From positions 1-64,000 of IMG/VR virus record IMGVR_UViG_3300025696_000001: 64,000 bases of DNA. One strand, 5' to 3'. Position numbers and translations under genes: made by a program. The stretch comes from a virus. The notes beneath the pieces are model-generated. The model was given only the letters and a program-made list of their open reading frames with translations. It was not told where the DNA came from and did not search any database. Below, one piece after another: positions 305 to 41,125 of this stretch (its first letter is position 1; each line of letters opens with the position of its first letter).

Positions 305-331
305 TTATTAACAAAAAAATTGCTCAAAATA

Positions 332-700
332 ATGAACCATACGGTAATGAAATTTAAAGAAAGAAAACATAAATTAATAACATATAAAGAAATAGAAGAT
401 CTTCCTTTTAATAAACAAATAGACTTTTCACAAGAACAGGATAATTCCATACTTTGTACAAGACTTGCTGATACAAAAACAGGAATGAGTTTTAGAGTGG
501 TAATGAAGAAAGGAAAAAAGTGGGAAGAGCATGAGCATGATTGTGATGAGACTATATTAATGTATAAAGGAATCCTTAAAGGATTACTAACTAAAACAAT
601 AGTATCAAGAGGTTCATTAATAGAAATGCCCGCTGGTACACATCACGAAATATATTCAGAAACAGACGCAGAATTTTACGTAGAATTTAAAAAACCCTAA
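332..700 (+). CDS. Cupin-fold protein
   Basis: Both cupin motifs are present: HEHDCDETILMYKG (HxH-x3-E-x6-G) and GSLIEMPAGTHH (G-x5-P-x-G-x2-H). ATG at 332 lies inside the ORF that the track opens at TTG 320. Confidence 0.6.
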   Translation: MNHTVMKFKERKHKLITYKEIEDLPFNKQIDFSQEQDNSILCTRLADTKTGMSFRVVMKKGKKWEEHEHDCDETILMYKGILKGLLTKTIVSRGSLIEMPAGTHHEIYSETDAEFYVEFKKP

Positions 701-713
701 AAAATAAGATATA

Positions 714-1112
714 ATGGAATGGTTATTAAATAACATCTTTCAAATAATAACCTTGCTGGGGATACCAATTACTTGGTTTGTAAAAGATAGGTATTTTACC
801 AAAAAAGATTTAAAAGATAGAGATGTTAATACTGAATCTAACCAGTCTGAAATTGTATCTAAAAATTTAGAGTTATATCAACGAATGCTCGATGATATAG
901 AAAAGAGATATGAAGAAAGGTTGTTTAAGTCAGACAGAGAAAGAGAAGAATTAGAAAATATTATAAAAGAATTAAAACAGATAATAAAGGAATTAGAACA
1001 AGCATTAGCAGAATCAACTGAATTAAACCATCAGTTAGAAATTAAAACCAAAAGATTTGTTAATGAAATAATTAATCTAAAAGCTAGATTAAAAGAACAA
1101 GATGAAAAATAA
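714..1112 (+). CDS. Membrane-anchored coiled-coil protein, holin/spanin-like lysis accessory
   Basis: N-terminal TM segment IFQIITLLGIPITWFV followed by a long K/E-rich coiled coil. Overlaps the start of the endolysin gene. Confidence 0.4.
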   Translation: MEWLLNNIFQIITLLGIPITWFVKDRYFTKKDLKDRDVNTESNQSEIVSKNLELYQRMLDDIEKRYEERLFKSDREREELENIIKELKQIIKELEQALAESTELNHQLEIKTKRFVNEIINLKARLKEQDEK

Positions 1113-1653
1113 TAATATGAAAGATCAATTACTTAAAAATCCAAATGCAGATAAACTTACTGTAGAAAGGATAGGTAAGGTACATCCATTTCTTAGAGAG
1201 GCTGTATATTGTATATATGAAGAAATTTGTAACAAAGTAAATTCACAATATACCAGAGTTAGATTTAGTGATACTTTAAGAACGTTTAAAGAACAAGATG
1301 AGCTATATAAACAAGGTCGTACTAAACCTGGCTCTAAAGTTACATGGGTACGTGGTGGAGGTTCTTATCATAATTATGGTCTTGCTGTGGATATAGTTCT
1401 TATTAGAGATAAGGATAAAAACGGATCTTTTGAAGCAGCTAGTTGGGATACTATATTTGATGGTGATGGTGATGGTATTGCTGATTGGGCTGAATGTGTA
1501 AAGATATTCAACAAGTATGATTGGCAATGGGGTCTTAAGCGTAGTAATGGTACTCGTTATGATTTACCTCATTTTCAAAGAACACTGGGTTATACAACAA
1601 AACAACTTAATGCATTACCTAAAGATGGTGATGGTTATCCAATAATAAAATAA
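1102..1653 (+). CDS. Peptidase M15 (VanY / L-Ala-D-Glu peptidase type) endolysin
   Basis: Motifs SDTLRTFKEQDELYKQGR, GGSYHNYGLAVDIV and DLPHFQ match the zinc D,D/L,D-peptidase M15 signature. Confidence 0.8.
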   Translation: MKNNNMKDQLLKNPNADKLTVERIGKVHPFLREAVYCIYEEICNKVNSQYTRVRFSDTLRTFKEQDELYKQGRTKPGSKVTWVRGGGSYHNYGLAVDIVLIRDKDKNGSFEAASWDTIFDGDGDGIADWAECVKIFNKYDWQWGLKRSNGTRYDLPHFQRTLGYTTKQLNALPKDGDGYPIIK

Positions 1654-2270
1654 TGAAAATAACAGATAAAGTTAAAGACATAAGTCTTTTGGTATTAAGT
1701 ATTCTAGTAATACTGTTTGGATTTTTATACTTCAATAGAGTTGATGACGAAATGGTGGTAGAAGTTCCTGTAAAAATAGAAGTTCCAGTTCCTATAGTAG
1801 AAAAACAATTTGATACTATATATGAACCATATCCTGTATACGTTAAACCTGATACAGTTAAGGTAGTAGAATACAGAAATAGTGATATTCAAACCAAGGA
1901 TAGTTTGTACGTAGTAGCTACAGCTAAACGTAAGTATACCAATGTGTATGAAGATGAATATCTTGTTGCAACAGTAAATAGTGAAACAAGTGGTTTTTTA
2001 AATAAAGAAACTTTTGGTTATAAAACTAAACCTAGATCTATTGCAGTAGATACTGTTGTGCCAGTTACAATAGATGTTCCTTATAGATCAAGAATATTTA
2101 TAGGTGGTGAAGTTTCAGCTCCCGTATTAACAGGTGTTTTAACTCAAGATCTAATAAGACAAAGTGCCAGAGCTGAGATAGGAGCTGGTATAGATACCAA
2201 GAATTATATATTCAAGGGATCATTAGCAACAGATGGTTTTGTAGGACTAGGTGTATATTATAAGTTCTAA
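1653..2270 (+). CDS. N-terminally anchored membrane protein, function unknown (possible lysis accessory)
   Basis: TM segment ISLLVLSILVILFGFLYF. ATGA overlap with the endolysin stop. TAA stop. Confidence 0.5.
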   Translation: MKITDKVKDISLLVLSILVILFGFLYFNRVDDEMVVEVPVKIEVPVPIVEKQFDTIYEPYPVYVKPDTVKVVEYRNSDIQTKDSLYVVATAKRKYTNVYEDEYLVATVNSETSGFLNKETFGYKTKPRSIAVDTVVPVTIDVPYRSRIFIGGEVSAPVLTGVLTQDLIRQSARAEIGAGIDTKNYIFKGSLATDGFVGLGVYYKF

Positions 2271-2357
2271 TATTATAAAATAATATAAAATAAACCTTTA
2301 TTTATTAGGTTATTAAAAATATTGTTCGTAACTTTGTAATGAACTTAAATTATAAAT

Positions 2358-2942
2358 ATGAAATCTTATATTAATTACTATGTTTATTCACATATAAATA
2401 AAGAAAATAATGAAATATTTTATATAGGAATTGGATCTACTGTAAATGAAAACGAATATAAAAGATCTAATACTAAATTTCATAGAAATAATTTTTGGAA
2501 AAATTATACTAATAAGTACAGTTATAAAGTGGAAATCTTATATGAAAATATAAATAAAAAATCAGCTATAGATTTTGAAATATTTTTAATAAAATTATAT
2601 GGTCGCAGAGATCTTAATGAGGGTACTTTAGTTAATTTAACCGATGGAGGAGAAGGAATAAAAAGATATAAACATACTAAGGAAACTAAAAACAAAATGT
2701 CCAAATCTCATTTAGGAAAAGTAATGAGTAAAAAAACAAAACAAAAACTTAGTAATTTCAGAAAAGATATACCTTCTAATAGATGTAAACCTGTAATAGA
2801 TAATAAAACTGGAGTAATTTATAATTCATTAAAAGAAGCTTGTAAACATTACGATTTTAAATATAGAACATTACATGCTATGCTTATTGGTCAAAATCCA
2901 AATAAAAGCAACTTAACTTATATTAAAAAAAATGGAAATTAA
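2358..2942 (+). CDS. Free-standing GIY-YIG homing endonuclease (I-TevI-like architecture)
   Basis: YVYSH..EIFYIGIG (GIY-YIG). NUMOD3-like repeats HTKETKNKMSKSHLGK and SKKTKQKLSNF. C-terminal HTH-like PVIDNKTGVIYNSLKEACKHY. Confidence 0.8.
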   Translation: MKSYINYYVYSHINKENNEIFYIGIGSTVNENEYKRSNTKFHRNNFWKNYTNKYSYKVEILYENINKKSAIDFEIFLIKLYGRRDLNEGTLVNLTDGGEGIKRYKHTKETKNKMSKSHLGKVMSKKTKQKLSNFRKDIPSNRCKPVIDNKTGVIYNSLKEACKHYDFKYRTLHAMLIGQNPNKSNLTYIKKNGN

Positions 2943-3864
2943 AAAAATTAAACAATTTTTACGAGATAAGCCTGGATATCTTAAAAAGTCAGGAGTAGTA
3001 TTAGCTGAAAGGTTATTTGATAACCCTACTGACGAAGAAGTAGTAAATTGTTACAATGCATTAGCTGAAGTTAAACTACAGCTTAAAGAGGCTGAAATGA
3101 AGCCACAAGAACAAGGAGGTAAAGTATTAATTTACGATATAGAAACCAGTCCTAACATTGGATGGTTTTGGAGAGCTGGTTATAAGCTTAATATCTCACC
3201 AGAAAATATAACTAAAGAAAGAGCAATTATATGTGTGTCTTATAAATGGTTAGGTGAAGATGAAGTATATAGTCTTAGATGGGATAATGATCAATGTGAT
3301 AAATTTCTTATTGAACAGTTTGTAGAGGTAATGAATGAAGCTGATCTTATGGTAGCTCACAACGGTGATAGATTTGATCTTAAATGGATTAAGACTAGAG
3401 CATTATTTCATAGTATTACCAGTATGTTAATTGATTATAAATCACTTGATACACTTAAACTAGCTAAAAAGAAATTTAACTTCAACAGTAATAGACTTGA
3501 TTATATAGCTAAATACCTTGGATTTGAAGGTAAGATTAAAACTACAATAGGTCTTTGGACTGATATAGTCTTTAAAAAAGATGAACAGGCTCTTAAGGAA
3601 ATGATTGAATACTGTGAAGAAGATGTTAGACAACTTGAAAAAGTATATTGTAAGCTTGTTGGATGGGAGAAACCTAAGTTCCATGCAGGTGTATTGGAAG
3701 GAAAGGAGAGATTTAGTTCACCAATTAGCGGAGGCTATAACCTAAAGAAAATTAAAGAAACTGTAACTACAGCAGGAACAGTTAAACATATAATGAAAGA
3801 TCTAGATACAGATAGAATGTTTGAAATGAATGATTCAAACTATCGTAAATATTTAGACAGATAA
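2932..3864 (+). CDS. DEDD-type 3'-5' exonuclease (DnaQ / PolB-exo-like)
   Basis: ExoI LIYDIETS, ExoII AHNGDRFDL, ExoIII YCEEDVRQL. Confidence 0.7.
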   Translation: MEIKKIKQFLRDKPGYLKKSGVVLAERLFDNPTDEEVVNCYNALAEVKLQLKEAEMKPQEQGGKVLIYDIETSPNIGWFWRAGYKLNISPENITKERAIICVSYKWLGEDEVYSLRWDNDQCDKFLIEQFVEVMNEADLMVAHNGDRFDLKWIKTRALFHSITSMLIDYKSLDTLKLAKKKFNFNSNRLDYIAKYLGFEGKIKTTIGLWTDIVFKKDEQALKEMIEYCEEDVRQLEKVYCKLVGWEKPKFHAGVLEGKERFSSPISGGYNLKKIKETVTTAGTVKHIMKDLDTDRMFEMNDSNYRKYLDR

Positions 3865-3887
3865 ACAAATAATTTAAGTTGAGTGTA

Positions 3888-3918
3888 AATCTCTCTCTAA
3901 TACAGGGAGAGATTTTTT
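3888..3918 (+). terminator. Intrinsic terminator
   Basis: 10-bp stem AAUCUCUCUC / GGGAGAGAUU, 7-nt loop, followed by a U-run. Lies between the exonuclease stop and the next ATG. Confidence 0.7.
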
Positions 3919-3929
3919 ATTTAAAAACT

Positions 3930-4613
3930 ATGGCAAAACTAGAAGAAATATATTACGACATAATAGAAGGTATTAAAGAATATTCAGATGATTCTGAATT
4001 TAGCTATGAATACATAATCTATTTATACAATATCAAAAGGGCTAAGTACCTTAAACAAAAACTTGATCAATTAGGTCGTAAGTTTGATAATAGAACCTTA
4101 CAATCACTTTGTTTGACTTTAGAAGAGGTAGATTCAAATATGTGTGGAATAGAAGGTTGTGAAAAGATAATGCGTACTAAACAAGTATTACCTAAACTAT
4201 TACAACTTAGTGATAAGGATGCAGTTGAAAGAATATCACCATCAGATCAGTTAAGTAAAAAATACAATACCATTCCTAGAGAAAAGGCTGTTTACTACTT
4301 GAATAGTAATTTTGCAAGTAAGATAAAAGCATATATTCATAATGATGGTCATATATATTTAATATCATCACAGCCAGTATTTACTGATTGTATAACCATA
4401 AGTGGTGTATTTGAAGATCCTCTTAGTTTAAAAGAATATAAAAACTGTTGTGATTGTGATGATTTAAGTTCTGTATGTTTTGATGAAGCTACTACTGATT
4501 ATCCAATTACACCTGATTTACTTGATTTAATAAGAACAGAAATCATTAATGAACTATTAGGAAGAAAAGATCCTAGACTACAAGACAAAGATAACGACTC
4601 AGATGATCAATAA
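3930..4613 (+). CDS. Hypothetical virion-module protein
   Basis: First ATG after the terminator, in frame with track ORF 3879..4613. Acidic C-terminus. No motif recognised. Confidence 0.6.
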   Translation: MAKLEEIYYDIIEGIKEYSDDSEFSYEYIIYLYNIKRAKYLKQKLDQLGRKFDNRTLQSLCLTLEEVDSNMCGIEGCEKIMRTKQVLPKLLQLSDKDAVERISPSDQLSKKYNTIPREKAVYYLNSNFASKIKAYIHNDGHIYLISSQPVFTDCITISGVFEDPLSLKEYKNCCDCDDLSSVCFDEATTDYPITPDLLDLIRTEIINELLGRKDPRLQDKDNDSDDQ

Positions 4614-5115
4614 AATAAAATCACATTACGGAATAAATGATTATTATAAATATTATAAATCAAAGTATCCCAACGATAATATATCTAAAAAGGATTTTAA
4701 AAATATATTTACTATTTTTAATAAAGAACTTACCAAAGAAATTATAGAAAAAGGTAAAGTTAAGCTACCAAAGAGATTTGGTGAAATAGAAATTATAAAA
4801 AAGAAAAGAGAAGTTTATATAAATAAAGAAGGTGTTGTAATAAACAATAAACCTATTGATTGGAAAGCTACAAAAGATCTTTGGGCTATTAATGATGAGG
4901 CTAAAGAAAATAAAGTTCTTATAAGACATAATAACAAACATACTGGAGGCTATGTCTTTAGAATTGCATACAATAAAAAAGTGGCTAAATATAAAAACAA
5001 GTCTGTTTATTTTTTCAAACCAGTAAGAGATTTTTCAAGAAGTATTAATAAAAGGATAAAAGATTACTCAAAAAGTAAGTTTGATGCCTATGTAAAAAAA
5101 GATTATCATGTATAA
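4603..5115 (+). CDS. Possible HU/IHF-like DNA-binding protein
   Basis: ISKKDFKNIFTIFNKELTKEIIEKGKVKLPKRFGEIEIIKKK follows the HU/IHF pattern (sKKD..i...l..G..V.L..fG.f.v). crAss-like phages carry an IHF-like gene in this module. Confidence 0.4.
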   Translation: MINKIKSHYGINDYYKYYKSKYPNDNISKKDFKNIFTIFNKELTKEIIEKGKVKLPKRFGEIEIIKKKREVYINKEGVVINNKPIDWKATKDLWAINDEAKENKVLIRHNNKHTGGYVFRIAYNKKVAKYKNKSVYFFKPVRDFSRSINKRIKDYSKSKFDAYVKKDYHV

Positions 5116-5605
5116 TGATTTACCATATCATAAACGACCTGATTATATATTAAAAAAGAAAGAATACGATAAAAAATATAGATCTCAAGAACATGTTAAA
5201 GCTAAGGCTAGATTATTTATGACATCAGAAGATCAAAAAAAGAAAAGAAGAATTAGAGATAAAAAAAGATACCATAATGATAAATTATATAAATTAAGAT
5301 CTTGTATAAAAGCTAATATGTTAACTCAACTTAAAAACGGAGGTTATACAAAAAAATCTAGAATGAATAAAATATTAGGTTATAGTTATGAGGAATTAAT
5401 TATACATTTAGAGAGTCAATTTAAAGAAGGTATGACATGGGATAATCATGGTGAATGGCATATAGATCATATAATACCTTTAATGGCAGCAAATAATAAT
5501 GATCAGTTTATGAAATTATGGAATTATGAAAATCTTCAACCTCTTTGGGCAAGTGAAAATTTAGCTAAAAGAAATGAAGATAGTTTATTAACATTTAAAA
5601 TATAA
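5108..5605 (+). CDS. Free-standing HNH endonuclease
   Basis: HGEWHIDHIIPL...NYENLQPLWASENLAKRN (H-N-H core). Confidence 0.75.
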   Translation: MYNDLPYHKRPDYILKKKEYDKKYRSQEHVKAKARLFMTSEDQKKKRRIRDKKRYHNDKLYKLRSCIKANMLTQLKNGGYTKKSRMNKILGYSYEELIIHLESQFKEGMTWDNHGEWHIDHIIPLMAANNNDQFMKLWNYENLQPLWASENLAKRNEDSLLTFKI

Positions 5606-5658
5606 ATATTTTGTACAACGGAAAAAATGTATCTTTTCAAAAGGTACTATGGAGAGTA

Positions 5659-6354
5659 ATGAATAAATCATTTATGTCTGACATAAGTGAAGAACAAGCT
5701 GCTGATTATGCTTATGAGCTAATTAGAAGATTACAAATGGGTTTTTTACTAAATGCTAAACCTGAAACTTTAAAAATAGTAAACCACAAGGCTAAGTTAC
5801 CCAACGATCTTGTTACACTTAGAGGTGTGAGATATAAGGTAGATAAACAATCATCATCTTATCTCTCAATGAGATATAATGGTGATATTTTTGCTAGTGG
5901 TTATCACTGTGAAGAATATGAACAAGACAAAGCTTGTGATATAACATATACACTCAATGACAACTACATAGATGTATCAGAAAAAGATGGGTTTGTAGAA
6001 TTATCTTATTATGCAATTATACTTGATGAAGATGGGTATCCCAAGATTCCAGATAATCAATCATTTCAAGATGCATTGTACTATTATATAATTAAAGAAC
6101 ATCTATTTGGTCTTACTGCAATAGGAAAGGTTTCAGAACGTTTTTATAATAGAGTGGAGCAAGAATATGCATGGGCAGTTGGACAAGCTACAAATAGTCT
6201 TAAATTAGCTGGTATGGATCATTGGGATACCACCATGAAAGGTATAAATAGACTTATACATGATTCTTCAATGTCAACAGGAGGATTCAAGGGATTACAT
6301 CAACAGGAGCAGATTAGACATAGACATGGTAACAGTAATAATTTAAAAGGATAA
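5659..6354 (+). CDS. Hypothetical tail/virion protein
   Basis: First in-frame ATG of the ORF that the track opens at TTG 5611. Sits directly upstream of the 1312-aa tail giant. Any 'ring protein' label would rest on position alone. Confidence 0.55.
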   Translation: MNKSFMSDISEEQAADYAYELIRRLQMGFLLNAKPETLKIVNHKAKLPNDLVTLRGVRYKVDKQSSSYLSMRYNGDIFASGYHCEEYEQDKACDITYTLNDNYIDVSEKDGFVELSYYAIILDEDGYPKIPDNQSFQDALYYYIIKEHLFGLTAIGKVSERFYNRVEQEYAWAVGQATNSLKLAGMDHWDTTMKGINRLIHDSSMSTGGFKGLHQQEQIRHRHGNSNNLKG

Positions 6355-6358
6355 AGAT

Positions 6359-10297: not shown

Positions 10298-10358
10298 TCA
10301 TATAAAATAACCTATATAAAATTAGGTTAATATAAATTAAAACAATATATTTGTAGTT

Positions 10359-13900: not shown

Positions 13901-13901
13901 A

Positions 13902-20974: not shown

Positions 20975-20986
20975 TAAAAATATAAT

Positions 20987-26900: not shown

Positions 26901-28252
26901 TAAGTAAAGATATCTACACTGCATTTATGTCTAAATATCCTTTGTTTCAAGTAGAAGAAAACCCATTGGTATTTATTAAAAAAGTTAAGTCCGACTTATT
27001 TAATTATAAAAATTCACAGGATAAAAAATTTCCAAATGCATTTATAGAAGCTATTACATTTTATGAAAATTCATTTGGTCTTGATATAGGTAGAATACCA
27101 ATTGAAACCAAAAATAACATATCTAATTCATTTTATGATATTTATAGAAAAGATAAAAAACTTGCAAAGAATGTAATTAAAGCATCATTTTTAATGACAG
27201 GATTTAATCAATCATTAATAGATTTTAATGAAATGATTCCTCATGAATTCTTTTTGGAAAACCATAGAATGCCTAATGGTGGATATATGTCAGTACAGGA
27301 ATTTATAAGACAGGAACTTTTAAAAGTAAATAATGCGGCTTATATGTCTTCATTTCATAAAGAGTATGCTCAAAATAATGTAGAAGACAATGTTATAGTT
27401 CCTAGTATTTCTGAAAGTTATCTGCAAAAGATAAAAGGTAGTAAAAATCTTTTCAAAATATCTAATTCTAATATTTTAAGTTCATATAAGCTTGCTGAAC
27501 GACGTAACTATAAAGGTGAGGTAATAGAGGAAGAAACTTCTTATACAGCATTTCTAAAAACAAGTGAACCTATTGTATCTGATGATGAAATGGATTATCT
27601 AGCTGCTTTTGATGATTTTATAGAAGAAGAAGTTTATAATCCACTATTGTTTGAATATATGGGTAATATAGAAGAAAATGGAGAGATTTCACCATTATAC
27701 AAACGTATTGAAAAGAAAGGATATAGAGATAGAACTTCTAAAGTTCATTATAAAGAATATAATGTAGAAGAAAGTAAGTTTAGAGATAATAGAGAATCAG
27801 TAATTGAAGGCAACGACAATCTTGATAAACTACCTTCTCAATACACTTTATATGAAAATTATAAACTAGCTGAATATGGTGAAAAAGAATCTTACAGAGG
27901 TAGTGAAGGACTTAAAAGATATATATCAGAATTAAATAGAAATGAATCTGAAGAAACTAGTGTATCTGAAGAAAATGTTGTATCTTTACAAAATGAAGAT
28001 ATATATGTATCATCTATACATGATAAAATAGATGGAAATGCTTATAACATAGCTTTAGAATATAAAGGAGTAGAATATGATATGGTTATATCTAGAGATG
28101 GTGAGATTATAGATCCTACTTATGTAGAAGGAACTAAAGAAAAAAATGCTGATCCTAGAATGTTTAAAATATCTAAAGAAAAATTAAATAGTATATTTAA
28201 ACAATTAGATACTTTTGAACAAGAATCAAATAACCCATTAGACTGTAATTAA
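20987..28252 (+). CDS. crAss-like virion-packaged DNA-dependent RNA polymerase (2421 aa)
   Basis: Size and position match crAss-like giants. The metal-binding loop KTGSDFDIDKMYV (DFDID at 25253-25267, in frame) matches the DxDxD catalytic loop of two-barrel RNAPs described for crAss-like phages. Confidence 0.7.
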   Translation: MSCKNTIIYKQLLDVYKEEKLAKERYDWLTSPKFLQLFGDWTEGENREIDPSSNRTNNDEDNTPRLFSESKMGKTINYFLDRYENRIDVTPRNFEYLNIENRTTKINEVVNSISNIIFLENIKENFNDLSLIENIDIDSYIDSFLNNLEKRELEGDANDIKQLKNLSEEVLQTVGYSKEKVQVLEMMSDERLRIINGLRKGKLELKEEIKNFFRNKGLDINDQVDTLDSEDLDDNSDRGEKENSVEQNTKDKASTNVKLMLSFIPSYETNPSFGANIQSNRFQESSTSTFSSQKLMSGDIVHENLLKDLADIVTLKVPTGVTDLFESMKAILAENQYNKPYYKDVLQIVNSVDQNKQNEFVSAMMHSRYSHLVSENDLVDNVFKTFDAAKQTSIESKITKNWQERFNAKFFNDESKLDTSEIDYLYTYSKKTKNIVDTIFSTGSKLDELTDDQFANKIVRALFRGEHNILGVFKQMGIENITSNVIYSQIFNVEPDLNTIDFRKAVKTNIQNLNDSIIKSVNDLRSNKNNDNYKFIDNNKSWLFNDLAVYTAMSENDIKDSTVYSMNKMFWSYGNPSYISNMVSIFKQDPNSLRELKKDPINKHSLWVDYLLAEETDDQGEYLMYKDDREKESAKRLDEFFVGRMLQYQTKQNISEATDNKKISPVDQTIDRVNKVMKGGVKNAAGTLTKSTPSIYATIVPADKSTSFEISINHFIDETMESMENVDNIQFSNKVKNILFNYFTDEYSRMVNAYKVIQEFEALPEEEKPEAFKNLNVHYHVNPKGINIDPNNYRNNTYGIRKDNKKDGELLGQAFVSQIMTDINYNSLNNALAKGNIFRNDNSPKFPQGLNKDQEKVIKDKINSMLQQRVVDNVGKLMAQGIIKKDKNGYTMNTIDKDVKKTYNAENGNFTQPSLYHLVSDYTINTIIANVEYTKLFTGDPAYYKNMVDFFKRVPATYTDGTQLRLGIEGTNDATFNMVVVENQIVGSNFYNELKDSLKLTNSDITEEEINDIIGAYENGINQTDAQAWITPNRWKFILERTGKWSKAHDVVYDKMLEKNTEPFTAKELKLSAQPLKGVYFGVVQGVPTYMKYSQAVLSPMLVKGSKLQTLYDAMEKQNIDEAVTLDGVKVGAKVPTNISRDNIDFNIQRLNNSEWKLQQDLPVKLMKQTLLGSQIQKNIYSTIQLDEQYDIEGTTMTGSEMILHINDIISTMSNKAIDNLSVTLGMDNNGKIDKDQLYKIAEDEINDNPDQYTNNVKDAIRKQIPFEAIPGLKDKIYSIVFSKIRKSASNIKTNGGSFIQMSNYGLDQVTADEAGVTWLVEPNELRPPTLYQDKDGNIKQRPGQIFISHSDIAKAIPNYRELAKKGKLKSMLDNDILKAIGYRIPNQGMSSNDALDIVGILPPYMNDTIVAYTEITTKTGSDFDIDKMYVMLPEIKTLYNKRTYGQAKKYLNSILRNDDVDLNNVDSLNEFYEDLLEQTGIELNTEELTKLLLSSDEYLVSDNYFQIIVDNIVKGDSILSEKFEEQYEIGEINKIVKTKSNKDSKAGMNNMLFDAYWSILTNKSTYTDLIKPIDFDYLQNHIKSLNETQDLNENFKFYDGLYQLQLKNTYTLGKSGVGISANHAVDHNISKNGVNLTFNGYYLGVGFENSMGETVFDRNPSTMSSNSVELTTEEAKEAAERINKGRKQEDKVNYKTLKSFKIGDTISAFMNAFVDNAKDPYIEKGNYDTYTSAVAFMLTRAGVHPYWTDAFIGQPILKELTAYIKDYESQSIEKNPAFKGMSGFDIILAREVSELINNKSKSAINKKLADIKKRKLEVYTYSDLINTYDNDSSNEKNIQILLKFKEFQDQAKKLDASVNLSRFDTLGSGRNFVDMLVYRNNLLNILNKQSEKNEIRNHYNKYIKNGVYTSLGTQLNNSVIYANDLLEDNSQIFLSANSSFLNVINNISMNTASSYGGSMGRSTNKDMIGKISKDIYTAFMSKYPLFQVEENPLVFIKKVKSDLFNYKNSQDKKFPNAFIEAITFYENSFGLDIGRIPIETKNNISNSFYDIYRKDKKLAKNVIKASFLMTGFNQSLIDFNEMIPHEFFLENHRMPNGGYMSVQEFIRQELLKVNNAAYMSSFHKEYAQNNVEDNVIVPSISESYLQKIKGSKNLFKISNSNILSSYKLAERRNYKGEVIEEETSYTAFLKTSEPIVSDDEMDYLAAFDDFIEEEVYNPLLFEYMGNIEENGEISPLYKRIEKKGYRDRTSKVHYKEYNVEESKFRDNRESVIEGNDNLDKLPSQYTLYENYKLAEYGEKESYRGSEGLKRYISELNRNESEETSVSEENVVSLQNEDIYVSSIHDKIDGNAYNIALEYKGVEYDMVISRDGEIIDPTYVEGTKEKNADPRMFKISKEKLNSIFKQLDTFEQESNNPLDCN

Positions 28253-28261
28253 AATAATAAT

Positions 28262-31200
28262 ATGAGTTGTAATACACAAACAAATACAATAAACTACCTT
28301 AAGAAAAAGGAGTTAATAGAAGACAATAGAAACGTACCTATTGATAAGCGTGAAGCTTTTGATGCTGAAAATGAACGTCTTACAGAATATGCTAAGACTG
28401 ATAAAGGTATTGACATGGGTCCACTGTTTACGGTTGAGAATAAAGAAATTAAAAGATCTGGTAAACAAGGTACTGTTATTATTAATAGAGCTAATCCTAA
28501 TGTTAAAGCATTTGAAGCTATTGAAGCATTTAATGAAAAGTCTAAAAAAAATAATCAAACCTTTGAAAAAAGATTAGAGGAACAACAGGAAAGTAAGATA
28601 CAATATAAAGAATTTTTATTTGATAGTACAAAAAAGTCTATAGCTCCAACCAATGAATATCTACCCAGTGAAAGAGAGCAAAATAGAGTTGATATACTTA
28701 ATAAATTGTTTGATGGTACTACTAATCCAACTACAGCTAATAAGTTTCTTAAAAACCTTTATAGCAATGGTGAAATAGATATTAATGAAGAAGGTATGGA
28801 ACTTATTAAATCTATGCTTCCTACCAGGTCTAAGATTGTATTTACTACTTCTGATAAAATGAAAGTTAGTAAATATTCATATGCTGAATATACTATAGAT
28901 AATAATACAATATCCATTAATCAAGATTTAATGGTTAAAGGTAATTTGTATTTTGCAATAGAATCTATATTACATGAAATAGCTCACGATAGATTTCATA
29001 AAGCACTTAGTCAACCTAAGACCAATAAGCAAATTGCATTTAGAAATAGTATGGTTTCCAGCTATGAATTCTATAAGAGAAATCTTGAAATAGATCCTAA
29101 TAATAATGATGATTATGGATTTACCAATGTAGACGAATTTGTATCTGAAATACTTACCAATAAAGCATTTAGAGATAAGCTAAAAACAGCTGAATCAACC
29201 AAATCAATATGGGATTCATTTATAGACGCTATTAAAACTTTGTTTGGACTAGGTGCCTCACTAAAAGTAAATGAAATATTAGACTCTATTATTGATTTAG
29301 CTCAAACAGAGTATAATGAAAATACTGAATCACCGTTAAACAAAACTTTTGCAAAACAGGTTAAGACACAAAGTGATATTAAAGTTGATCTTGAAAAAGA
29401 ACTAACCAATGTTAAAGGATTACTTACACGTATTTACGCTACTTTAGAAGCTGTTAAAATGAAGACCGCAACTAAAGAAGGTGAAAAATACAAAGGTAAA
29501 TATAAGGATATTCAAGAATTACTTAATGATCTAAAGACAGCATCTTCTAAAGAAGCTGTATTAAACTTTATGGAATTTTCTGTAAGAGAACTTAATAATT
29601 TGCATAAAGGTATTTTAAAGCAAAAAAATCCAGATGCTGGATATTTAAGTAGATTTAAGGCTTATATGAGTGTATTTTCAAACAATCAAGAAATACGTGA
29701 GATACTTGAAAATCTTAAAGCATATGGTAAGATATCAGATGCTGAATATAACAAAATAGATATTGCTCTTAATCAAGCTGTTGCTAAATATAATTCCATT
29801 GATCAGATTATAACGAATAAAATGAAAGATGTGGTAACTAAAATATACGCACCTCATAATAAAAGGGTTGATACTAAATATGAAGAACTTTTTAAAGCTG
29901 AATATAAGCAAAATAAACCTATTGGTATAACTGAATCAGAATATGTAAAACAACAGTTAGATGATAATTATGATGCTATAATGGCAGAAAAAGAAAAGAA
30001 TATTCGTATTGGTCTTAATATGATGAATAAGGATATAACATCTGCAGAATTTGCATTATTTACTGAAAAAGATATTGATAATACCTTTTTAAGTATAATG
30101 AGTGAAAGAATTGATGATTTAGATAAAAAAGTTAGAATGGTTGGTATGAACGTTAGGAATAAAATTGCTACTGCTACTAAAAAAGCTAATTTACAAGGTA
30201 GATCAAGTAAAAGTGTTCATAGTTTTATGCTCGATCTTACTAAAGACAATTCTTATTATGTAACTAAATATAAAGGTAAATTTAATGATAAAATTGAGTC
30301 ATTTCAACAAAGATTATCTGAAGAAGAATTTGGTTCTAAAAAATATAAGAAAATAGAGAATGAAAGAAATAAATGGATAAAAGAAAATTCTAAAGGTGGA
30401 ATTCCAACTAGTAAATGGTTAAATCCTAAGTTTAATACTATGACTAATACTCAAAAAGAGTATTATGATACTATGATAGATCAAATGAAGGAAAATAACA
30501 AGAAGACTAATGGTAATAATAGTTTATTTAGGCAACCTATAGAAGATGGTCCTGTATTCATTAAAATGCATGGTATAACTCAATCCACATCTGATAAAAT
30601 ACTTAGTGGTGAAGCTGGAAATGCTGTTAAAAAAGGATTTGGTGATTTATTTAAAATAAGAAAAGATCAAGATGAATTTGGTCAAATGGAAGATGAATCA
30701 TTTTATGAAAGAACATCCACTGATTTAAATAATAAAGCAGTTAATTCTATTCCTATATTTTATAGAGGTAGAATAGAATCCAATGATCAATCATTTGATG
30801 TGGGGACTATGGTTGCTATGGAATCTATTATGGCTGAAAATTATAAACAAAAGAAAGTAATGGAAGCTGAAACTGATATTCTTCTTCATGTTCTTGCTAC
30901 AACGAAAGTACAAAAAAGAACTACAATGATGAAAGCTCTTATTGGTAAATTTAGTAAAGATGAAGACGTAGATAGTACAGTTAAGGAAATTGGTATAAAT
31001 ACAAATATCTATAAGAAAATTAAATCTGTTGTAGAAAATAGAATGTATGGTATTACAGATGTATATGCAGGTAAAATATTGGGTAAAAATATTAGTGTAA
31101 ATAAAATATCCAATTCCATAGCTGGATTTACTGCTGACTTACAATTAGGTCTTAACTGGCTTACTGCTATTCCTAATGTTGTGCAAGCTAAATTACAAAA

Positions 31201-32437
31201 TCTTATTGAAGGTATAGGTGGGGATATTTATACAATAAAAGATATTAAAAAAGCAGAACAAATTTATTTTGCTGACATTAAAAATATAATGGATGATGTA
31301 GGATCTTATACTAATAAAAGTAAAATTAATATATTACTTGAAACATTTGATGTAATGGGAGATTTTAGTGCTGTTAAAAATAAGTTTGAAAATAGAACCA
31401 AGCTTAGATCATTAGCAAGCAAAGATAGCATACATGCTTATAACGCAATGGGTGAACATTATGCTCAATCTACTTTAATGCTTGCTATAATGAATGGTGT
31501 TAAAGTAAAAAATGCTAAAGGTCAATTTATAGATTCTAAAGGTAATGTAACAACTAAAGATAAAGCAATGTCTTTATATGAAGCTTATGAAAAGAAAACA
31601 GATAAAGACGGTAATGTAACACTTGAATTGAATAAATTAGCAGACCATACTTCTCATAGTTCTCAAAAACTATCTGAATTGGGTGAAATACATCATCAGC
31701 AATTAATAAGAAAACTAACTATTAAATTACATGGTCAGTATGATACTAAATTTCAATCTCATTTACAGAGATCTTGGTACGGTAAAGTATTTTCTATGTT
31801 TAAAAAATGGATGGTACCAGCTTATCAACGTAGGTATAAAGGTGTAATGTATTCACTTAAAGATTCAAGTGATCTTACTGATGAACAAAAATTCTATGAC
31901 TATGAAATGGGTAGATTTGATGAAGGTATCTATACTAGCTTTATAAGATTTATCAAAAATGGATTTTTTCCAGCAGTTAAAAATCTTAACTTAGAATTAG
32001 CTAAAACAAATTGGAGTGAATTAAGTGATATGGAGCGTTCTAACATACGTAAAACCATAGCTGAGTTGATGATAACAGGTATGATGATTACAGCTGCTAT
32101 GTTAACCTATGCTGCAGCAGACGATGATGATGATGAATTATTGTTTACACTTGCTTATGTATTTAGAAGACAACAATCTGAATTTATGCAATTTTATCAT
32201 CCAGCTGAAAACTTACGTGTATTTAGATCACCAGCAGTAGCTTTAAATACTGTAGAAAAAACATTTTCGTGGATGCAGCAAATAATGCCCTGGGCAATTA
32301 CTGAAGAATATGAAAATGGTAAAAATAGAGGTGAATATAAATCTTGGATTAAAACTAAAAAACTAATACCTATTATGGCACAGTTTGAACGTAGTCCAAA
32401 AGAACTGTTTAATTTCTTAGAGAATACTACAAACTAA
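28262..32437 (+). CDS. Giant virion protein (1391 aa) with a zincin HExxH motif and a C-terminal TM segment
   Basis: ESILHEIAHDRFH (HEIAH at 28973-28987). Hydrophobic MITGMMITAAMLTYAAA followed by DDDDDE. Last gene of the plus-strand block. Confidence 0.6.
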   Translation: MSCNTQTNTINYLKKKELIEDNRNVPIDKREAFDAENERLTEYAKTDKGIDMGPLFTVENKEIKRSGKQGTVIINRANPNVKAFEAIEAFNEKSKKNNQTFEKRLEEQQESKIQYKEFLFDSTKKSIAPTNEYLPSEREQNRVDILNKLFDGTTNPTTANKFLKNLYSNGEIDINEEGMELIKSMLPTRSKIVFTTSDKMKVSKYSYAEYTIDNNTISINQDLMVKGNLYFAIESILHEIAHDRFHKALSQPKTNKQIAFRNSMVSSYEFYKRNLEIDPNNNDDYGFTNVDEFVSEILTNKAFRDKLKTAESTKSIWDSFIDAIKTLFGLGASLKVNEILDSIIDLAQTEYNENTESPLNKTFAKQVKTQSDIKVDLEKELTNVKGLLTRIYATLEAVKMKTATKEGEKYKGKYKDIQELLNDLKTASSKEAVLNFMEFSVRELNNLHKGILKQKNPDAGYLSRFKAYMSVFSNNQEIREILENLKAYGKISDAEYNKIDIALNQAVAKYNSIDQIITNKMKDVVTKIYAPHNKRVDTKYEELFKAEYKQNKPIGITESEYVKQQLDDNYDAIMAEKEKNIRIGLNMMNKDITSAEFALFTEKDIDNTFLSIMSERIDDLDKKVRMVGMNVRNKIATATKKANLQGRSSKSVHSFMLDLTKDNSYYVTKYKGKFNDKIESFQQRLSEEEFGSKKYKKIENERNKWIKENSKGGIPTSKWLNPKFNTMTNTQKEYYDTMIDQMKENNKKTNGNNSLFRQPIEDGPVFIKMHGITQSTSDKILSGEAGNAVKKGFGDLFKIRKDQDEFGQMEDESFYERTSTDLNNKAVNSIPIFYRGRIESNDQSFDVGTMVAMESIMAENYKQKKVMEAETDILLHVLATTKVQKRTTMMKALIGKFSKDEDVDSTVKEIGINTNIYKKIKSVVENRMYGITDVYAGKILGKNISVNKISNSIAGFTADLQLGLNWLTAIPNVVQAKLQNLIEGIGGDIYTIKDIKKAEQIYFADIKNIMDDVGSYTNKSKINILLETFDVMGDFSAVKNKFENRTKLRSLASKDSIHAYNAMGEHYAQSTLMLAIMNGVKVKNAKGQFIDSKGNVTTKDKAMSLYEAYEKKTDKDGNVTLELNKLADHTSHSSQKLSELGEIHHQQLIRKLTIKLHGQYDTKFQSHLQRSWYGKVFSMFKKWMVPAYQRRYKGVMYSLKDSSDLTDEQKFYDYEMGRFDEGIYTSFIRFIKNGFFPAVKNLNLELAKTNWSELSDMERSNIRKTIAELMITGMMITAAMLTYAAADDDDDELLFTLAYVFRRQQSEFMQFYHPAENLRVFRSPAVALNTVEKTFSWMQQIMPWAITEEYENGKNRGEYKSWIKTKKLIPIMAQFERSPKELFNFLENTTN

Positions 32438-32573: not shown

Positions 32574-32909
32574 TTAAATTAAGGTTGATAAATAAGCTCC
32601 TAATATAAAACCTATAGTTTTAGGTAAAGGAAATATTACATTTCTACCAAGTTTAGTTACATATTTATTTCTATTAAGAATTTTACTTTCTATTTGATAA
32701 TGTGAAAATAATCCAATAAAAAATAATATTAAATTAATTAATACGTTATCACTATTTTTTACTGCAAAAACAAATAATGTCAAAAATGCAATACTTGTTC
32801 CTCCTGTAAAACCATATAAAAAGTTTACAAAACTATGTTGTAGTATCTCTTGCCATGATACATCTTTTGCATCAAGAACTTTTCTTTTTTCTACTAAAAA
32901 TCTAGTCAT
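32574..32909 (-). CDS. Small multi-pass membrane protein
   Basis: Three hydrophobic segments: FTGGTSIAFLTLFVFAV, LINLILFFIGLF, IGFILGAYLSTLI. Confidence 0.55.
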   Translation of the reverse strand: MTRFLVEKRKVLDAKDVSWQEILQHSFVNFLYGFTGGTSIAFLTLFVFAVKNSDNVLINLILFFIGLFSHYQIESKILNRNKYVTKLGRNVIFPLPKTIGFILGAYLSTLI

Positions 32910-33135
32910 CTTTGATTCCTTTTAATAATACTTTACCTGTAATATTTAAACTATATCTTTTAATATTCCAACCTTCAAAAGAAACATTTACTAAAGGATT
33001 CCATCTACTACTCCAAACTCTACTTTCTTTATCTGTATTCTTTATCCAATTATAAACTTTAATACATTCTTCAGCATCTTGTCTATGATCAAGCTCTCTA
33101 AGTTGTTTTTCTAAATGGTTCATTAATTTTCCCAT
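32902..33135 (-). CDS. Hypothetical protein (77 aa)
   Basis: ORF with TAG stop, overlap-coupled to both neighbours. Confidence 0.5.
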   Translation of the reverse strand: MGKLMNHLEKQLRELDHRQDAEECIKVYNWIKNTDKESRVWSSRWNPLVNVSFEGWNIKRYSLNITGKVLLKGIKDD

Positions 33136-33407
33136 TATGAGTATTTTTTAATTAAATGTTGTTCTTTTTTGTTAATTTCAGCTTGTACTTCTTTTTTACC
33201 AAATACTTTAATCATATAGTCAAGTCTTATACGTGCATGTGCAAGCTCTTCTGTAATTTTATCATCTGATACTCCAGCTCCCTTGTTTAAACGTTGCAGA
33301 AGTACTGTAGTAGCTTCAGTTAGTTCTTCACAACACTTTGCAATGTTAAATTTAGGTTTATTGTTTTTTTCAAGAAGTACACGTACTGCTCTACTTGTCT
33401 TTACCAT
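33135..33407 (-). CDS. Small all-alpha protein, possible MazG/HisE-type NTP pyrophosphohydrolase
   Basis: KCCEELTEATTVLLQRL ... ITEELAHARIRLDYM resembles the EExxE...D helices of the all-alpha NTP-PPase fold. Weak call. Confidence 0.35.
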   Translation of the reverse strand: MVKTSRAVRVLLEKNNKPKFNIAKCCEELTEATTVLLQRLNKGAGVSDDKITEELAHARIRLDYMIKVFGKKEVQAEINKKEQHLIKKYS

Positions 33408-34386: not shown

Positions 34387-34493
34387 TGCATTACATACAT
34401 TACACTGTTATTAATATTTAATGCTATTGCATTATCTTGTGTTATAAAATCCTGTGGATCATTATATAACGTTTTTTCAAATATATTCATTTT

Positions 34494-35661: not shown

Positions 35662-35747
35662 CTACTTTCTTTTTTATTTTAAGTCTCTTGAGCCAGCCTG
35701 TGCTGTCAAGATGTCTATAATGCTGTCTTGCTTTCATTGTTTAAATA

Positions 35748-36938: not shown

Positions 36939-36974
36939 GCTTATGTTTATTAAGTTTGGTATGAAGCTTAAACA

Positions 36975-37257: not shown

Positions 37258-37259
37258 AA

Positions 37260-38058: not shown

Positions 38059-38060
38059 AA

Positions 38061-38222: not shown

Positions 38223-38244
38223 TTTATTTAAATTTAAATTTTGT

Positions 38245-41109: not shown

Positions 41110-41125
41110 TTTCTCTTTTTTTAAT

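What the first reader, a model, noticed from the sequence alone, without database searches (positions are those of the whole stretch)
320..32437. Recoding is module-restricted: the 32-kb virion/lysis block is completely TGA-free
Standard-code ORFs tile the whole plus-strand block (332..32437) with no coding gaps. That is about 32 kb of late-type genes with zero in-frame TGA, although Trp (TGG) is frequent there. The minus-strand segment 44105..55472 (UDG, ligase cluster, primase, SSB, ATPase) is also TGA-free.
All in-frame TGAs fall in two patches: 35.5-43.7 kb, and 62.1-62.9 kb (62126-28 and 62911-13). As I recall the published surveys of recoded phages, including crAss-like ones, they describe recoded stops concentrated in late structural and lysis genes. 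Here the polarity looks inverted.
Possible explanations:
- a timing switch acting on a middle gene class;
- a code-4 host with strong selection for TGG in virion genes;
- a mosaic origin of the TGA-containing patches.
No suppressor tRNA or release-factor gene is visible in this window.
Basis: partly seen in the sequence, partly recalled or inferred. Interest (0 to 1): 0.75.

Follow-up and report, generated by a model that had tools for sequence, protein, structure and literature searches.

The report
UGA-as-tryptophan confined to early replication genes
A marine crAss-like phage and its close relatives read the stop codon UGA as tryptophan only in their early DNA-replication genes and never in their virion genes, which is the reverse of the pattern published for recoded phages.

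Summary
The window is 64 kb of a ~100.6-kb marine crAss-like phage whose nearest cultured relative is Cellulophaga phage phi14:2.

- **Late arm.** All 17 plus-strand genes in 332..32437 lack in-frame TGA. So does the whole 57-kb middle/late arm (50 genes, 146 TGG, 0 TGA).
- **Replicative arm.** It has 14 TGA against 103 TGG (Fisher p = 7.5e-6). The TGAs lie inside conserved domains and mostly at positions where standard-code relatives have TGG.
- **Not two fixed patches.** The DNA polymerase just past the window end also carries a TGA. Five sister lineages put TGAs in other replication genes, but none in any late-arm stretch sampled.
- **New signatures.** TGAs sit near gene 5' ends (median codon 19 against 206 for TGG). 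They are almost always followed by a purine. TGG is conserved far more than synonymous A/G sites. TGA is never a stop in this arm (0/49, against 8/45 in phi14:2).
- **No decoder found.** There is no tRNA(UCA), release-factor or TrpRS gene in the genome.

Best reading: a young, competitively decoded UGA-to-Trp reassignment, tolerated or used as a 5' gate in early enzymes and excluded from virion genes. A code-4 host, a mosaic origin and artefact are rejected.

The parts
332..32437 (+). Window part of the middle/late arm. It holds 17 genes: lysis, tail, ring and muzzle proteins, the homologues of the phi14:2 virion RNA polymerase proteins gp65 and gp66, and also a DnaQ-like exonuclease, a homing endonuclease and an endonuclease VII. 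There is no in-frame TGA and no TGA stop, so the block reads the same in code 11 and code 4.
   Evidence: Synteny with phi14:2 g065-g079.
32574..35435 (-). Five genes without TGA at the far end of the replicative arm.
   Evidence: 0 TGA, 14 TGG.
35479..35661 (-). Small gene of 60 aa with an in-frame TGA at 35548-35550 (codon 38). The closest standard-code relative has Trp (TGG) there.
35748..36938 (-). SNF2/ResIII-type helicase (homologue of phi14:2 g056). In-frame TGAs at 36903-36905 (codon 12), 36894-36896 (codon 15) and 36654-36656 (codon 95). The Walker A motif lies between codons 15 and 95.
   Evidence: Pfam ResIII spans residues 5-133. Codons 15 and 95 are TGA in L099 and L101 and TGG in L010 and phi14:2.
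36975..37142 (-). Small gene of 55 aa with an in-frame TGA at 37074-37076 (codon 23).
   Evidence: TGA in L099, TGG in L101.
38245..39891 (-). Ribonucleotide reductase large subunit with an in-frame TGA at 39733-39735 (codon 53). Public gene calls split it into 52-aa and 488-aa pieces.
   Evidence: TGA in L101, TGG in L099, Phe or Tyr in more distant relatives.
39956..40930 (-). Ribonucleotide reductase small subunit with an in-frame TGA at 40841-40843 (codon 30), inside the conserved motif HSYWIH.
   Evidence: Trp (TGG) in 16 of 16 standard-code relatives. TGA in L099 and L101. Trp at the aligned position in the solved homologue 6SF4/5OLK.
41126..41434 (-). MazG-type nucleotide pyrophosphohydrolase with an in-frame TGA at 41390-41392 (codon 15).
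   Evidence: (Trp in 4 of 4 relatives).
41451..42038 (-). Homologue of phi14:2 g047 with an in-frame TGA at 41985-41987 (codon 18).
43355..43735 (-). RusA-like resolvase (homologue of phi14:2 g044) with in-frame TGAs at 43679-43681 (codon 19) and 43637-43639 (codon 33). The four later Trp codons are TGG.
43736..61917 (-). Replication genes that carry no TGA in this lineage: UDG, an amidoligase/GATase cluster, primase, Sak4-like ATPase, a split thymidylate synthase and DnaB. Relatives have TGAs in three of them (the DnaB, thymidylate synthase and ATPase homologues).
61964..62158 (-). Small gene of 64 aa (homologue of phi14:2 g024) with an in-frame TGA at 62126-62128 (codon 11).
62335..62922 (-). 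Replisome-organiser-like gene (homologue of phi14:2 g022) with an in-frame TGA at 62911-62913 (codon 4).
   Evidence: The same codon is TGA in L104/L230, L177 and L178.
63605..64000 (-). 3' end of the family-B DNA polymerase gene. The gene runs about 1.5 kb past the window end and has an in-frame TGA at codon 80 there.
   Evidence: Codon 80 is TGA in L104, L177 and L178 and TGG in phi14:2 and L231.

Best explanation
**Shown**
- The phage belongs to a clade of at least six marine crAss-like lineages in which UGA has changed from a stop codon to a tryptophan codon.
- The change affects only the replicative arm. By synteny with phi14:2, this arm is the early class transcribed by the injected virion RNA polymerase.
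- The middle/late arm uses TGA neither as a sense codon nor as a stop, so it reads the same in both codes.

**Inferred**
- UGA is not a clean sense codon in the infected cell. It is probably decoded as Trp in competition with release factor 2, by something other than a canonical phage tRNA(UCA). Candidates are host tRNA-Trp, a host or co-resident suppressor, or an unrecognised phage factor.
- Because each UGA costs protein yield, selection keeps TGG at most Trp sites.
- It tolerates or exploits UGA only where aborting is cheap and a lower output is acceptable. That means the first one to three Trp codons of early enzymes, in purine-following contexts that favour suppression.
- It excludes UGA from abundant virion proteins. 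It also purges UGA as a stop in the arm where it is read through.
- Functionally, these 5' UGAs would act as leaky gates or attenuators on replication and nucleotide-metabolism genes.
For: **TGA is a sense codon for Trp**
- Pfam domains span the TGAs in the helicase and both RNR subunits.
- Standard-code relatives have TGG at the aligned sites: RNR beta 16/16, MazG 4/4, helicase codons 15 and 95, and RusA-like codons 19 and 33 in the nearer relatives (L010, phi14:2).
- The solved homologue 6SF4/5OLK has Trp at the RNR beta site.
- The sequence is 99.9-100% identical across assemblies from several samples.

**Restriction to one arm**
- 0 TGA / 146 TGG in the late arm against 14 / 103 in the replicative arm, p = 7.5e-6.
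- Relatives L099+L174, L101+L175 and L178+L008 show TGAs in replication genes and none in the late genes sampled.

**Decoding looks costly and competitive**
- TGG is retained at 95% of conserved Trp sites, against 34% and 15% retention of G-ending Lys/Glu/Gln codons. Four-fold sites are about 54% identical.
- The base after TGA is a purine at 21 of 22 unique sites across the clade, against 61 of 102 for TGG (p = 9e-4).
- TGAs are 5'-proximal: median codon 19 against 206 in the window (within-gene permutation p = 1.6e-4). In relatives, 18 of 19 unique sites are at or before codon 118.

**TGA is lost as a stop**
- 0 of 49 replicative-arm genes end in TGA, against 8 of 45 in phi14:2 (p = 0.002) and 7 of 118 in metagenomic standard-code relatives.

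**No canonical decoder**
- No tRNA(UCA), release-factor or TrpRS gene in the rebuilt genome, which is complete except for 184 bases inside the chaperonin gene (precomputed Pfam families).
Against: - Nothing here measures decoding efficiency or timing.
- The helicase has three TGAs and the DNA polymerase has one. If each were read poorly, these essential proteins would be made in very small amounts. Suppression must therefore be fairly efficient, which weakens the cost argument.
- TGA retention (8 of 9) matches the neutral retention of A-ending codons (85-92%). So there is no positive evidence that the TGAs are selected for.
- The lack of TGA stops in the late arm does not differ significantly from phi14:2 (0/47 against 3/46, p = 0.12).
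- The sister lineages share ancestry, so their shared sites are not independent replicates.
- The host is unidentified.
- A block of replication genes (43736..61917) with presumably similar expression carries no TGA in this lineage. Expression cost alone does not explain that.
Confidence: 0.5

Rival explanations
1. A temporal code switch with reversed polarity. UGA suppression would be available only in the early phase. It could be supplied by an early, highly expressed phage RNA or protein, or by transient inactivation of RF2. The 5' UGAs would then be a selected timer or licence for replication genes. Late genes would avoid UGA because suppression is off when they are translated.
For: - The TGA genes all lie in the arm that is early in phi14:2 (10.1101/2020.03.07.982082; synteny).
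- The 5' position is what a gate would need.
- The only tRNA gene sits next to a tmRNA gene in the early non-coding region, and it carries a 70-78 nt insert in the anticodon loop. It is present in all four recoded lineages for which that region is available.
- That tRNA was not found in standard-code phi14:2 (all but the last 418 bases scanned).
- The region in phi14:2 that holds its tmRNA gene (between g004 and g006) contains two intergenic stretches that are transcribed very highly from the earliest time point (10.1101/2020.03.07.982082).
- Three small genes at the very start of the arm still end in TGA.
Against: - No reading of the tRNA gives a UCA anticodon, and the candidate anticodons differ between lineages.
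- Its co-occurrence with recoding may only reflect shared ancestry.
- The tmRNA copy in this genome has lost its T arm.
- There are no expression data for this clade.
- TGA retention is no higher than neutral.
- The three early TGA 'stops' are each followed by TAA or TAG within 4-17 codons, and relatives have only 0-1 of them.
Confidence: 0.25
2. The host natively reads UGA as Trp (code 4), and the pattern is codon-usage drift with a stronger preference for TGG in virion genes.
For: - No phage suppressor was found.
- Trp-type tRNA(UCA) genes do occur in some Bacteroidota assemblies: a Cyclobacterium jeungdonense isolate and a Flavobacterium MAG contig.
Against: - TGA supplies only 12% of Trp codons in the recoded arm and 5% genome-wide. 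In real code-4 genomes it supplies 80-90% (Mgcod preprint).
- TGG is under strong purifying selection in an AT-rich genome.
- The rule that a purine follows TGA implies competition with a release factor.
- The nearest cultured relative infects Cellulophaga baltica and uses TGA as a stop in 13 genes.
- RNR beta is very close to that of a marine Flavobacteriaceae species.
Confidence: 0.07
3. The TGA-containing genes were acquired or replaced by recombination from a fully recoded donor (mosaic origin).
For: - In this lineage the TGAs cluster in one contiguous 8-kb patch.
Against: - The same genes are in the same order in standard-code relatives and in phi14:2.
- The TGAs sit mostly at ancestral TGG sites.
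- Most Trp codons in those genes are still TGG, for example 11 of 12 in RNR alpha.
- Relatives have TGAs in the polymerase and in the DnaB, thymidylate synthase and ATPase homologues outside the patch.
Confidence: 0.04
4. Artefact or decay: assembly errors, pseudogenes, or genes that are truly split.
For: - Public gene calls made with code 11 split these genes.
Against: - Contigs from several samples are 99.9-100% identical over the stretches compared.
- The same TGAs are conserved in lineages whose synonymous sites are saturated, with the reading frames intact.
- The fragments join in frame into full-length domains.
Confidence: 0.02

Closest known systems
Stop-codon-recoded crAss-like phages with block structure (Yutin et al. 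2021, PMC7886860; Borges et al. preprint 10.1101/2021.08.26.457843; Mgcod preprint 10.1101/2022.06.29.495998)
   Same: - It is a Crassvirales genome with TGA read as Trp.
- The recoding is confined to one block, and its boundary coincides with the switch of coding strand.
- The other block reads the same in both codes.
- A detectable tRNA(UCA) is absent, which is common (only 3 of 17 complete code 11+4 genomes in Mgcod and 35% in Borges have one).
- Close relatives use the standard code.
   Different: - The polarity is reversed. Here the replication (early) arm is recoded and the virion arm reads in both codes.
- The recoding is sparse (12% of Trp codons in that arm).
- The TGAs are confined to gene 5' ends and to contexts with a following purine.
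- The clade is marine, not from the gut.
Cellulophaga phage phi14:2 (NC_021806; Akihdevirus, Steigviridae)
   Same: - The major capsid protein is 71% identical.
- The genome size (about 100 kb) and GC content (about 29%) are similar.
- The two arms are syntenic gene for gene.
- It has a tmRNA gene in the same early non-coding region.
   Different: - phi14:2 uses the standard code. It has TGG at the orthologous sites it shares (helicase, RNR beta, RusA-like, polymerase) and TGA as the stop of 13 genes.
- No tRNA gene was found in it.
Leaky UGA read by tRNA-Trp, as in the Qbeta A1 readthrough protein, and the classical context effect on nonsense suppression (from my own knowledge, not checked here)
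   Same: - UGA is decoded as Trp in competition with termination.
- Efficiency is favoured by a purine after the codon.
   Different: - Here the UGAs lie inside essential domains near the N-terminus of many genes. They are not at the end of a complete ORF where readthrough adds an extension.
TGA-avoiding phages predicted to infect both standard-code and alternatively coded hosts (Liu et al. 2023, PMC10746230)
   Same: - A large part of the genome avoids TGA both as a stop and as a sense codon, so it can be translated under either code.
   Different: - Those phages avoid in-frame TGA throughout. This one requires UGA to be read as Trp for its polymerase, helicase and RNR.

Membership tests
Phage with TGA reassigned to Trp (code 4 type) | In-frame TGAs inside conserved genes, aligning with Trp in homologues | tested here: met
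Phage with TGA reassigned to Trp (code 4 type) | TGA is not used as a stop codon | tested here: met
   0 of 49 replicative-arm genes and 0 of 50 late-arm genes end in TGA, against 8/45 and 3/46 in phi14:2. Three small ORFs at the start of the arm end in TGA with ATGA overlaps and have back-up stops nearby.
Phage with TGA reassigned to Trp (code 4 type) | Phage-encoded suppressor tRNA with anticodon UCA (frequent but not universal) | tested here: not met
   ARAGORN, with and without its intron option, and Rfam were run over the rebuilt genome. The single tRNA has no UCA under any splice model.
Block-structured multi-code crAss-like genome (Yutin 2021; Mgcod) | The change of code coincides with the switch of coding strand | tested here: met
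   The boundary lies at the strand switch near 32.4-32.6 kb.
Block-structured multi-code crAss-like genome (Yutin 2021; Mgcod) | The recoded block holds the late (virion, lysis) genes, and the early replication block reads in both codes | tested here: not met
   The arrangement is reversed. Temporal classes are taken from phi14:2 by synteny and were not measured for this phage.
Crassvirales (Steigviridae-like) | crAss-type capsid, portal, ring, muzzle and auxiliary capsid proteins and the giant virion RNA polymerase block | tested here: met
   Precomputed Pfam families Crass_capsid, CrAss_Ring_1 to Ring_4, crAss_MUZ, crAss_AuxCP and crAss_CARG1. Capsid protein 71% identical to phi14:2.
Phage matched to a native code-4 host (for example Mollicutes phages) | TGA is the main Trp codon throughout the genome | tested here: not met
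   14 TGA against 249 TGG over the two arms, with TGG under selection.
Code 25 (TGA = Gly) or selenocysteine | TGA aligns with Gly, or with Cys/Sec | tested here: not met
   The aligned residues are Trp, or Phe, Tyr, Leu, Ile, Val or Lys, and never Gly or Cys. SECIS elements were not searched for specifically; Rfam found none.

The most novel reading that the evidence does not exclude
The 5'-proximal UGAs are a selected licence on early replication genes. They would be read by a non-canonical decoding device that this clade gained together with the recoding. One candidate is the early, intron-bearing tRNA next to the tmRNA gene. Another is a phage factor that disables RF2. UGA would then mean Trp only in a defined phase or host state. 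That would be a code switch running opposite to the published late-gene and lysis timer.
Probability: 0.2. Interest if true: 0.85.

Novelty: new variant of a known kind. Interest (0 to 1): 0.7.

Why it matters
The current model holds that phages recode stop codons to hold back late and lysis genes until a phage suppressor accumulates. This clade needs UGA read as Trp for its DNA polymerase, helicase and ribonucleotide reductase. By synteny with phi14:2, those genes are in the class transcribed first after infection. The virion genes stay code-neutral, and no suppressor tRNA is visible. So the late-gene timer cannot be the general reason for phage recoding.

Three sequence signatures look like a reassignment caught while the codon is still ambiguous:
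- the 5' position of the TGAs;
- the purine that follows them;
- the strong conservation of TGG.

This stage has mostly been discussed in theory. The clade has a cultured, genetically characterised standard-code relative (phi14:2 on Cellulophaga baltica), so reporter tests are feasible.

There is also a practical point. Public code-11 gene calls split the polymerase, RNR and helicase genes of these phages into fragments.

Tried and rejected
- **Near-identical GenBank phages.** None found by megablast.
- **Relatives of the last late-arm gene in IMG/VR.** A scan with the 28262..32437 protein found none.
- **Suppressor tRNA.** ARAGORN found no tRNA in the window or in any flanking piece, and Rfam at gathering score found nothing. 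The one tRNA appeared only in a permissive Rfam scan and with ARAGORN's intron option. I listed every way of joining its anticodon loop, and none gives UCA. The 3'-side model gives CUU in this phage and L177, and GAA or AAA in L104 and L178.
- **tmRNA as part of the decoding device.** Made unlikely, because standard-code phi14:2 also has a tmRNA gene and this phage's copy lacks the T arm.
- **Hidden genes in the large early gaps.** ORFs under other stop-codon sets are not convincing.
- **Repeat or promoter motifs that would delimit the TGA patch.** None found, apart from an AACCACTAA motif before four early ORFs.
- **Host identification through Trp-type tRNA(UCA) in GTDB genomes.** Most hits are Mycoplasmatota. 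The Ulvibacter MAG hit is not a tRNA. Only a Cyclobacterium isolate and a Flavobacterium MAG contig carry such a tRNA.
- **Early TGA stops as evidence for a switch.** The signal is weak, with 3 in this phage and 0-1 in relatives.
- **Exact 3' half of the tRNA in IMG/VR.** No match.
- **The 64-aa ORF at 61964..62158 as a fragment of a split DnaB gene.** Rejected, because phi14:2 has a free-standing homologue, g024.

Full report
**What the window is.** Exact-protein look-ups place the window on ~100.3-100.65-kb contigs from North Sea and other marine metagenomes. I rebuilt the whole genome from overlapping pieces. It is complete except for 184 bases inside the chaperonin gene. Precomputed Pfam families specific to crAss-like phages cover the capsid, ring, muzzle and auxiliary capsid proteins. 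The capsid protein is 71% identical to that of Cellulophaga phage phi14:2. The two genomes are syntenic gene for gene.

The genome has two arms:
- a plus-strand arm of about 57 kb holding the chaperonin, terminase, portal, capsid, tail and lysis genes and the virion RNA polymerase block; window 332..32437 is its last 32 kb;
- a minus-strand arm that starts with small ORFs and non-coding stretches, then runs through the DNA polymerase and the replication and nucleotide-metabolism genes down to window 32574.

**Check of the observation.** The 17 plus-strand genes in the window hold 10,615 codons. They have 75 TGG, no in-frame TGA, and TAA as every stop. The other two frames hold 134 and 708 TGA triplets. 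Over the whole middle/late arm the count is 50 genes, 146 TGG and 0 TGA. Over the replicative arm, from the polymerase to 32574, it is 49 genes, 103 TGG and 14 TGA (Fisher p = 7.5e-6). If the late arm had the same TGA share, the chance of finding none would be 8e-9.

Within the window's minus strand, 11 TGAs lie in 35479..43735 and none in 43736..61917 (p = 4e-5). A further candidate at 63101-63103 is not coding.

**The TGAs are sense codons for tryptophan.**
- They fall inside Pfam domains of the helicase and both RNR subunits.
- In 16 IMG/VR relatives that use the standard code, the aligned codon is TGG at RNR beta codon 30 (16/16) and MazG codon 15 (4/4).
- It is also TGG at helicase codons 15 and 95 and RusA-like codons 19 and 33 in the nearer relatives.
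- The remaining sites align with aromatic or hydrophobic residues or Lys, never Gly or Cys.
- phi14:2 has TGG at the shared sites in the helicase, RNR beta, the RusA-like gene and the polymerase.
- The RNR beta site lies in the motif HSYWIH, which is also Trp in the solved flavobacterial homologue 6SF4/5OLK.
- From my own knowledge, not tested here, this corresponds to Trp48 of E. coli NrdB, a residue of the radical pathway.
- Contigs from different samples are 99.9-100% identical over the stretches I could compare, which include five of the TGA sites. So these TGAs are not assembly errors.

**The unit is the arm, not two patches.**
- Public code-11 gene calls list a 79-aa and a 503-aa gene at the window edge. 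These are one family-B DNA polymerase with a TGA at codon 80.
- Two sister lineages, L099 and L101, have proteins 38-93% identical to the window's. They share most of the patch TGAs and show some turnover, for example RNR alpha codon 53, helicase codons 12 and 215, and codon 118 of the g047-like gene.
- Three further lineages (L104/L230, L177, L178) carry TGAs in the polymerase (codons 7, 31, 80) and the replisome-organiser-like gene (codon 4, shared with the window).
- They also carry TGAs in the DnaB homologue (codon 7), thymidylate synthase (codon 58) and the Sak4-like ATPase (codon 106).
- The sampled late-arm stretches of three of these lineages have no TGA in real genes. They are L174 (same contig as L099), L175, and L008 (same lineage as L178). 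Each covers 11-21 kb around the capsid gene.
- The outgroups have none at all. These are L010-L025, L231 and phi14:2.

**Signatures of costly, competitive decoding.**
1. *Selection on TGG.* Between the window and L099 or L101, four-fold sites are about 54% identical. G-ending Lys, Glu and Gln codons at conserved residues stay G-ending in only 34% and 15% of cases. TGG stays TGG in 95%. TGA stays TGA in 8 of 9, no more than the neutral retention of A-ending codons (85-92%). So TGA is selected against at most Trp sites but not at the sites where it occurs.
2. *Position.* In the window the median TGA codon position is 19, against 206 for TGG in the same genes (within-gene permutation p = 1.6e-4). 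In relatives, 18 of 19 unique sites are at or before codon 118. In most genes the first one to three Trp codons are TGA and the later ones TGG.
3. *Context.* The base after TGA is A or G at 21 of 22 unique sites in the clade and never T. After TGG it is a purine at 61 of 102 sites (p = 9e-4). From my own knowledge, a following purine is the classical context that favours tRNA-mediated suppression over release-factor action.
4. *Stops.* No gene of the replicative arm ends in TGA, against 8 of 45 in phi14:2 (p = 0.002). The late arm has 0 of 47, against 3 of 46 in phi14:2, which is not significant.

**What decodes UGA is unknown.** The genome has no tRNA(UCA). The precomputed Pfam families show no release factor or tRNA synthetase. 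The only tRNA gene (L094 9430-9573, about 4.3 kb beyond the window end) scores 46.6 bits against the Rfam tRNA model. It carries a 70-nt insert in the anticodon loop. Homologues with 78-nt inserts sit at the same place in L104, L177 and L178. All four have an 8-bp acceptor stem in which positions -1 and 73 covary. Their candidate anticodons differ between lineages, and none is UCA.

Just upstream lies a tmRNA gene. It scores 54-58 bits in the relatives and 46 bits in phi14:2. In this phage it has a deletion of about 100 nt that removes the T arm. phi14:2 has the tmRNA gene, but no tRNA gene was found in it. The tRNA gene therefore seems to have been gained in the same clade as the recoding. 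That could be coincidence of ancestry.

Enigmatic introns in phage tRNAs have been reported for Lak megaphages (PMC6784885). Missing suppressors are common in TGA-recoded phages (Borges preprint; Mgcod preprint).

**Timing and comparison with the literature.** In phi14:2 the whole replicative module is the early class and is transcribed by the injected virion RNA polymerase. [quoted passage not shown] By synteny, the TGA-bearing genes here are early genes. Published surveys describe the opposite arrangement. They find recoded late genes and replication genes that are standard-coded or readable in both codes, with the code boundary at the strand switch (PMC7886860; 10.1101/2021.08.26.457843; 10.1101/2022.06.29.495998). 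The boundary at the strand switch is shared. The polarity is reversed.

**Explanation.** I consider it well supported (about 0.9) that this is a clade-specific UGA-to-Trp reassignment confined to the early replicative arm. The mechanism is inferred. The conservation of TGG, the following purine, the 5' position and the loss of TGA stops fit a codon that is read as Trp in competition with termination. Such a codon would be allowed only where an aborted product is short and a lower yield is acceptable, and would be excluded from abundant virion proteins.

Whether the 5' UGAs are merely tolerated or serve as gates cannot be told from sequence. The switch model (rival 1) would give the clade-specific tRNA and the highly expressed early RNAs a role. 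A code-4 host, a mosaic origin and artefact are each contradicted by several results listed under the rivals.

**Limits.**
- The temporal classes are borrowed from phi14:2.
- The sister lineages are not independent samples.
- The late arms of the relatives were sampled only in part (about 11-21 kb each).
- The host and the decoding agent are unknown.
- Three TGAs in the helicase require fairly efficient decoding, which sits uneasily with a purely cost-based account.

Noticed in passing
L337 (phi14:2) 4031-4502; L104 1221-1667; L177 1927-2411; L178 5645-6096; L094 8931-9302 (about 4.6-5.0 kb beyond the window end): This phage family encodes a tmRNA with a long tag ending in LAMAA or LAMVA. In cultured phi14:2 the gene lies in the non-coding stretch between g004 and g006. 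Drobysheva et al. reported two very highly transcribed intergenic RNAs of unknown function at the g004-g005 and g005-g006 junctions. The RefSeq record lists no RNA gene in that stretch. The copy in the window's own genome has lost about 100 nt, including the T arm.
   Followed up: partly
L094 9430-9573 (about 4.3 kb beyond the window end); L104 1842-1995; L177 2542-2694; L178 6268-6421: This is the only tRNA gene of these genomes. It has a 70-78 nt AU-rich hairpin insert in the anticodon loop and an 8-bp acceptor stem in which positions -1 and 73 covary. It sits 130-180 nt downstream of the tmRNA gene. It is present in the four TGA-recoded lineages with data and was not found in phi14:2. The candidate anticodons differ between lineages (CUU, or GAA/AAA), and none is UCA. 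A pattern scan of IMG/VR shows that insert-bearing tRNAs are widespread in phage contigs.
   Followed up: partly
L094 5077-5130; L178 2959-3010: Matches to the twister-P1 ribozyme model (43 and 49 bits, below the gathering score of 67; E about 1e-7) in the early regions of two lineages, each just upstream of a small ORF.
   Followed up: no
window 55479-57855 (minus strand): The thymidylate synthase gene is in two pieces (57121..57855 and 55479..55841). Between them lies a GIY-YIG, I-TevI-like homing endonuclease ORF (56266..56976). The arrangement resembles the T4 td intron. The gene is uninterrupted in phi14:2 (g032). Rfam reported no group I intron.
   Followed up: no
scaffold_135 positions 5612-5614, 6778-6780 and 7578-7580 (L094; early small-ORF region outside the window): Three small early ORFs end in TGA inside an ATGA motif (at two of them the ATG starts the next called gene). 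Each is followed by TAA or TAG 4-17 codons later. They are the only apparent TGA stops in the genome. Relatives have 0-1 such cases.
   Followed up: partly
window 39956-40930: The phage RNR small subunit matches the solved NrdB of PDB entries 6SF4 and 5OLK very closely (E = 4e-136, roughly three quarters identical by eye). From memory these entries are from the marine flavobacterium Leeuwenhoekiella blandensis, which would point to a Flavobacteriaceae host range and a host-derived gene.
   Followed up: no
L257 6857-6930 (Cyclobacterium jeungdonense KCTC 23150); L272 7343-7415 (Flavobacterium sp. MAG contig with a tRNA cluster): These are Trp-type tRNAs of normal length with anticodon UCA in Bacteroidota assemblies. 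Opal suppressor tRNAs therefore exist in the phylum, possibly on mobile elements.
   Followed up: no
window 44808-52477: A cluster of gamma-glutamyl cyclotransferase-like, glutamine amidotransferase, COOH-NH2 ligase and amidoligase genes sits next to a UDG-like gene. It is conserved in phi14:2 (g037-g042). It resembles the gene sets proposed for DNA base hypermodification.
   Followed up: no
scaffold_135 positions 7561, 7901, 8323 and 10844 (L094): The motif AACCACTAA lies a few to about 20 nt upstream of the start codon of four early ORFs. It was seen upstream of genes nowhere else in the genome.
   Followed up: no
L337 9636-12081 (phi14:2 g018x): The phi14:2 DNA polymerase is annotated as a two-piece join, and homology to this phage's polymerase breaks between about 10586 and 10996. 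The gene in this clade has no such insertion.
   Followed up: no
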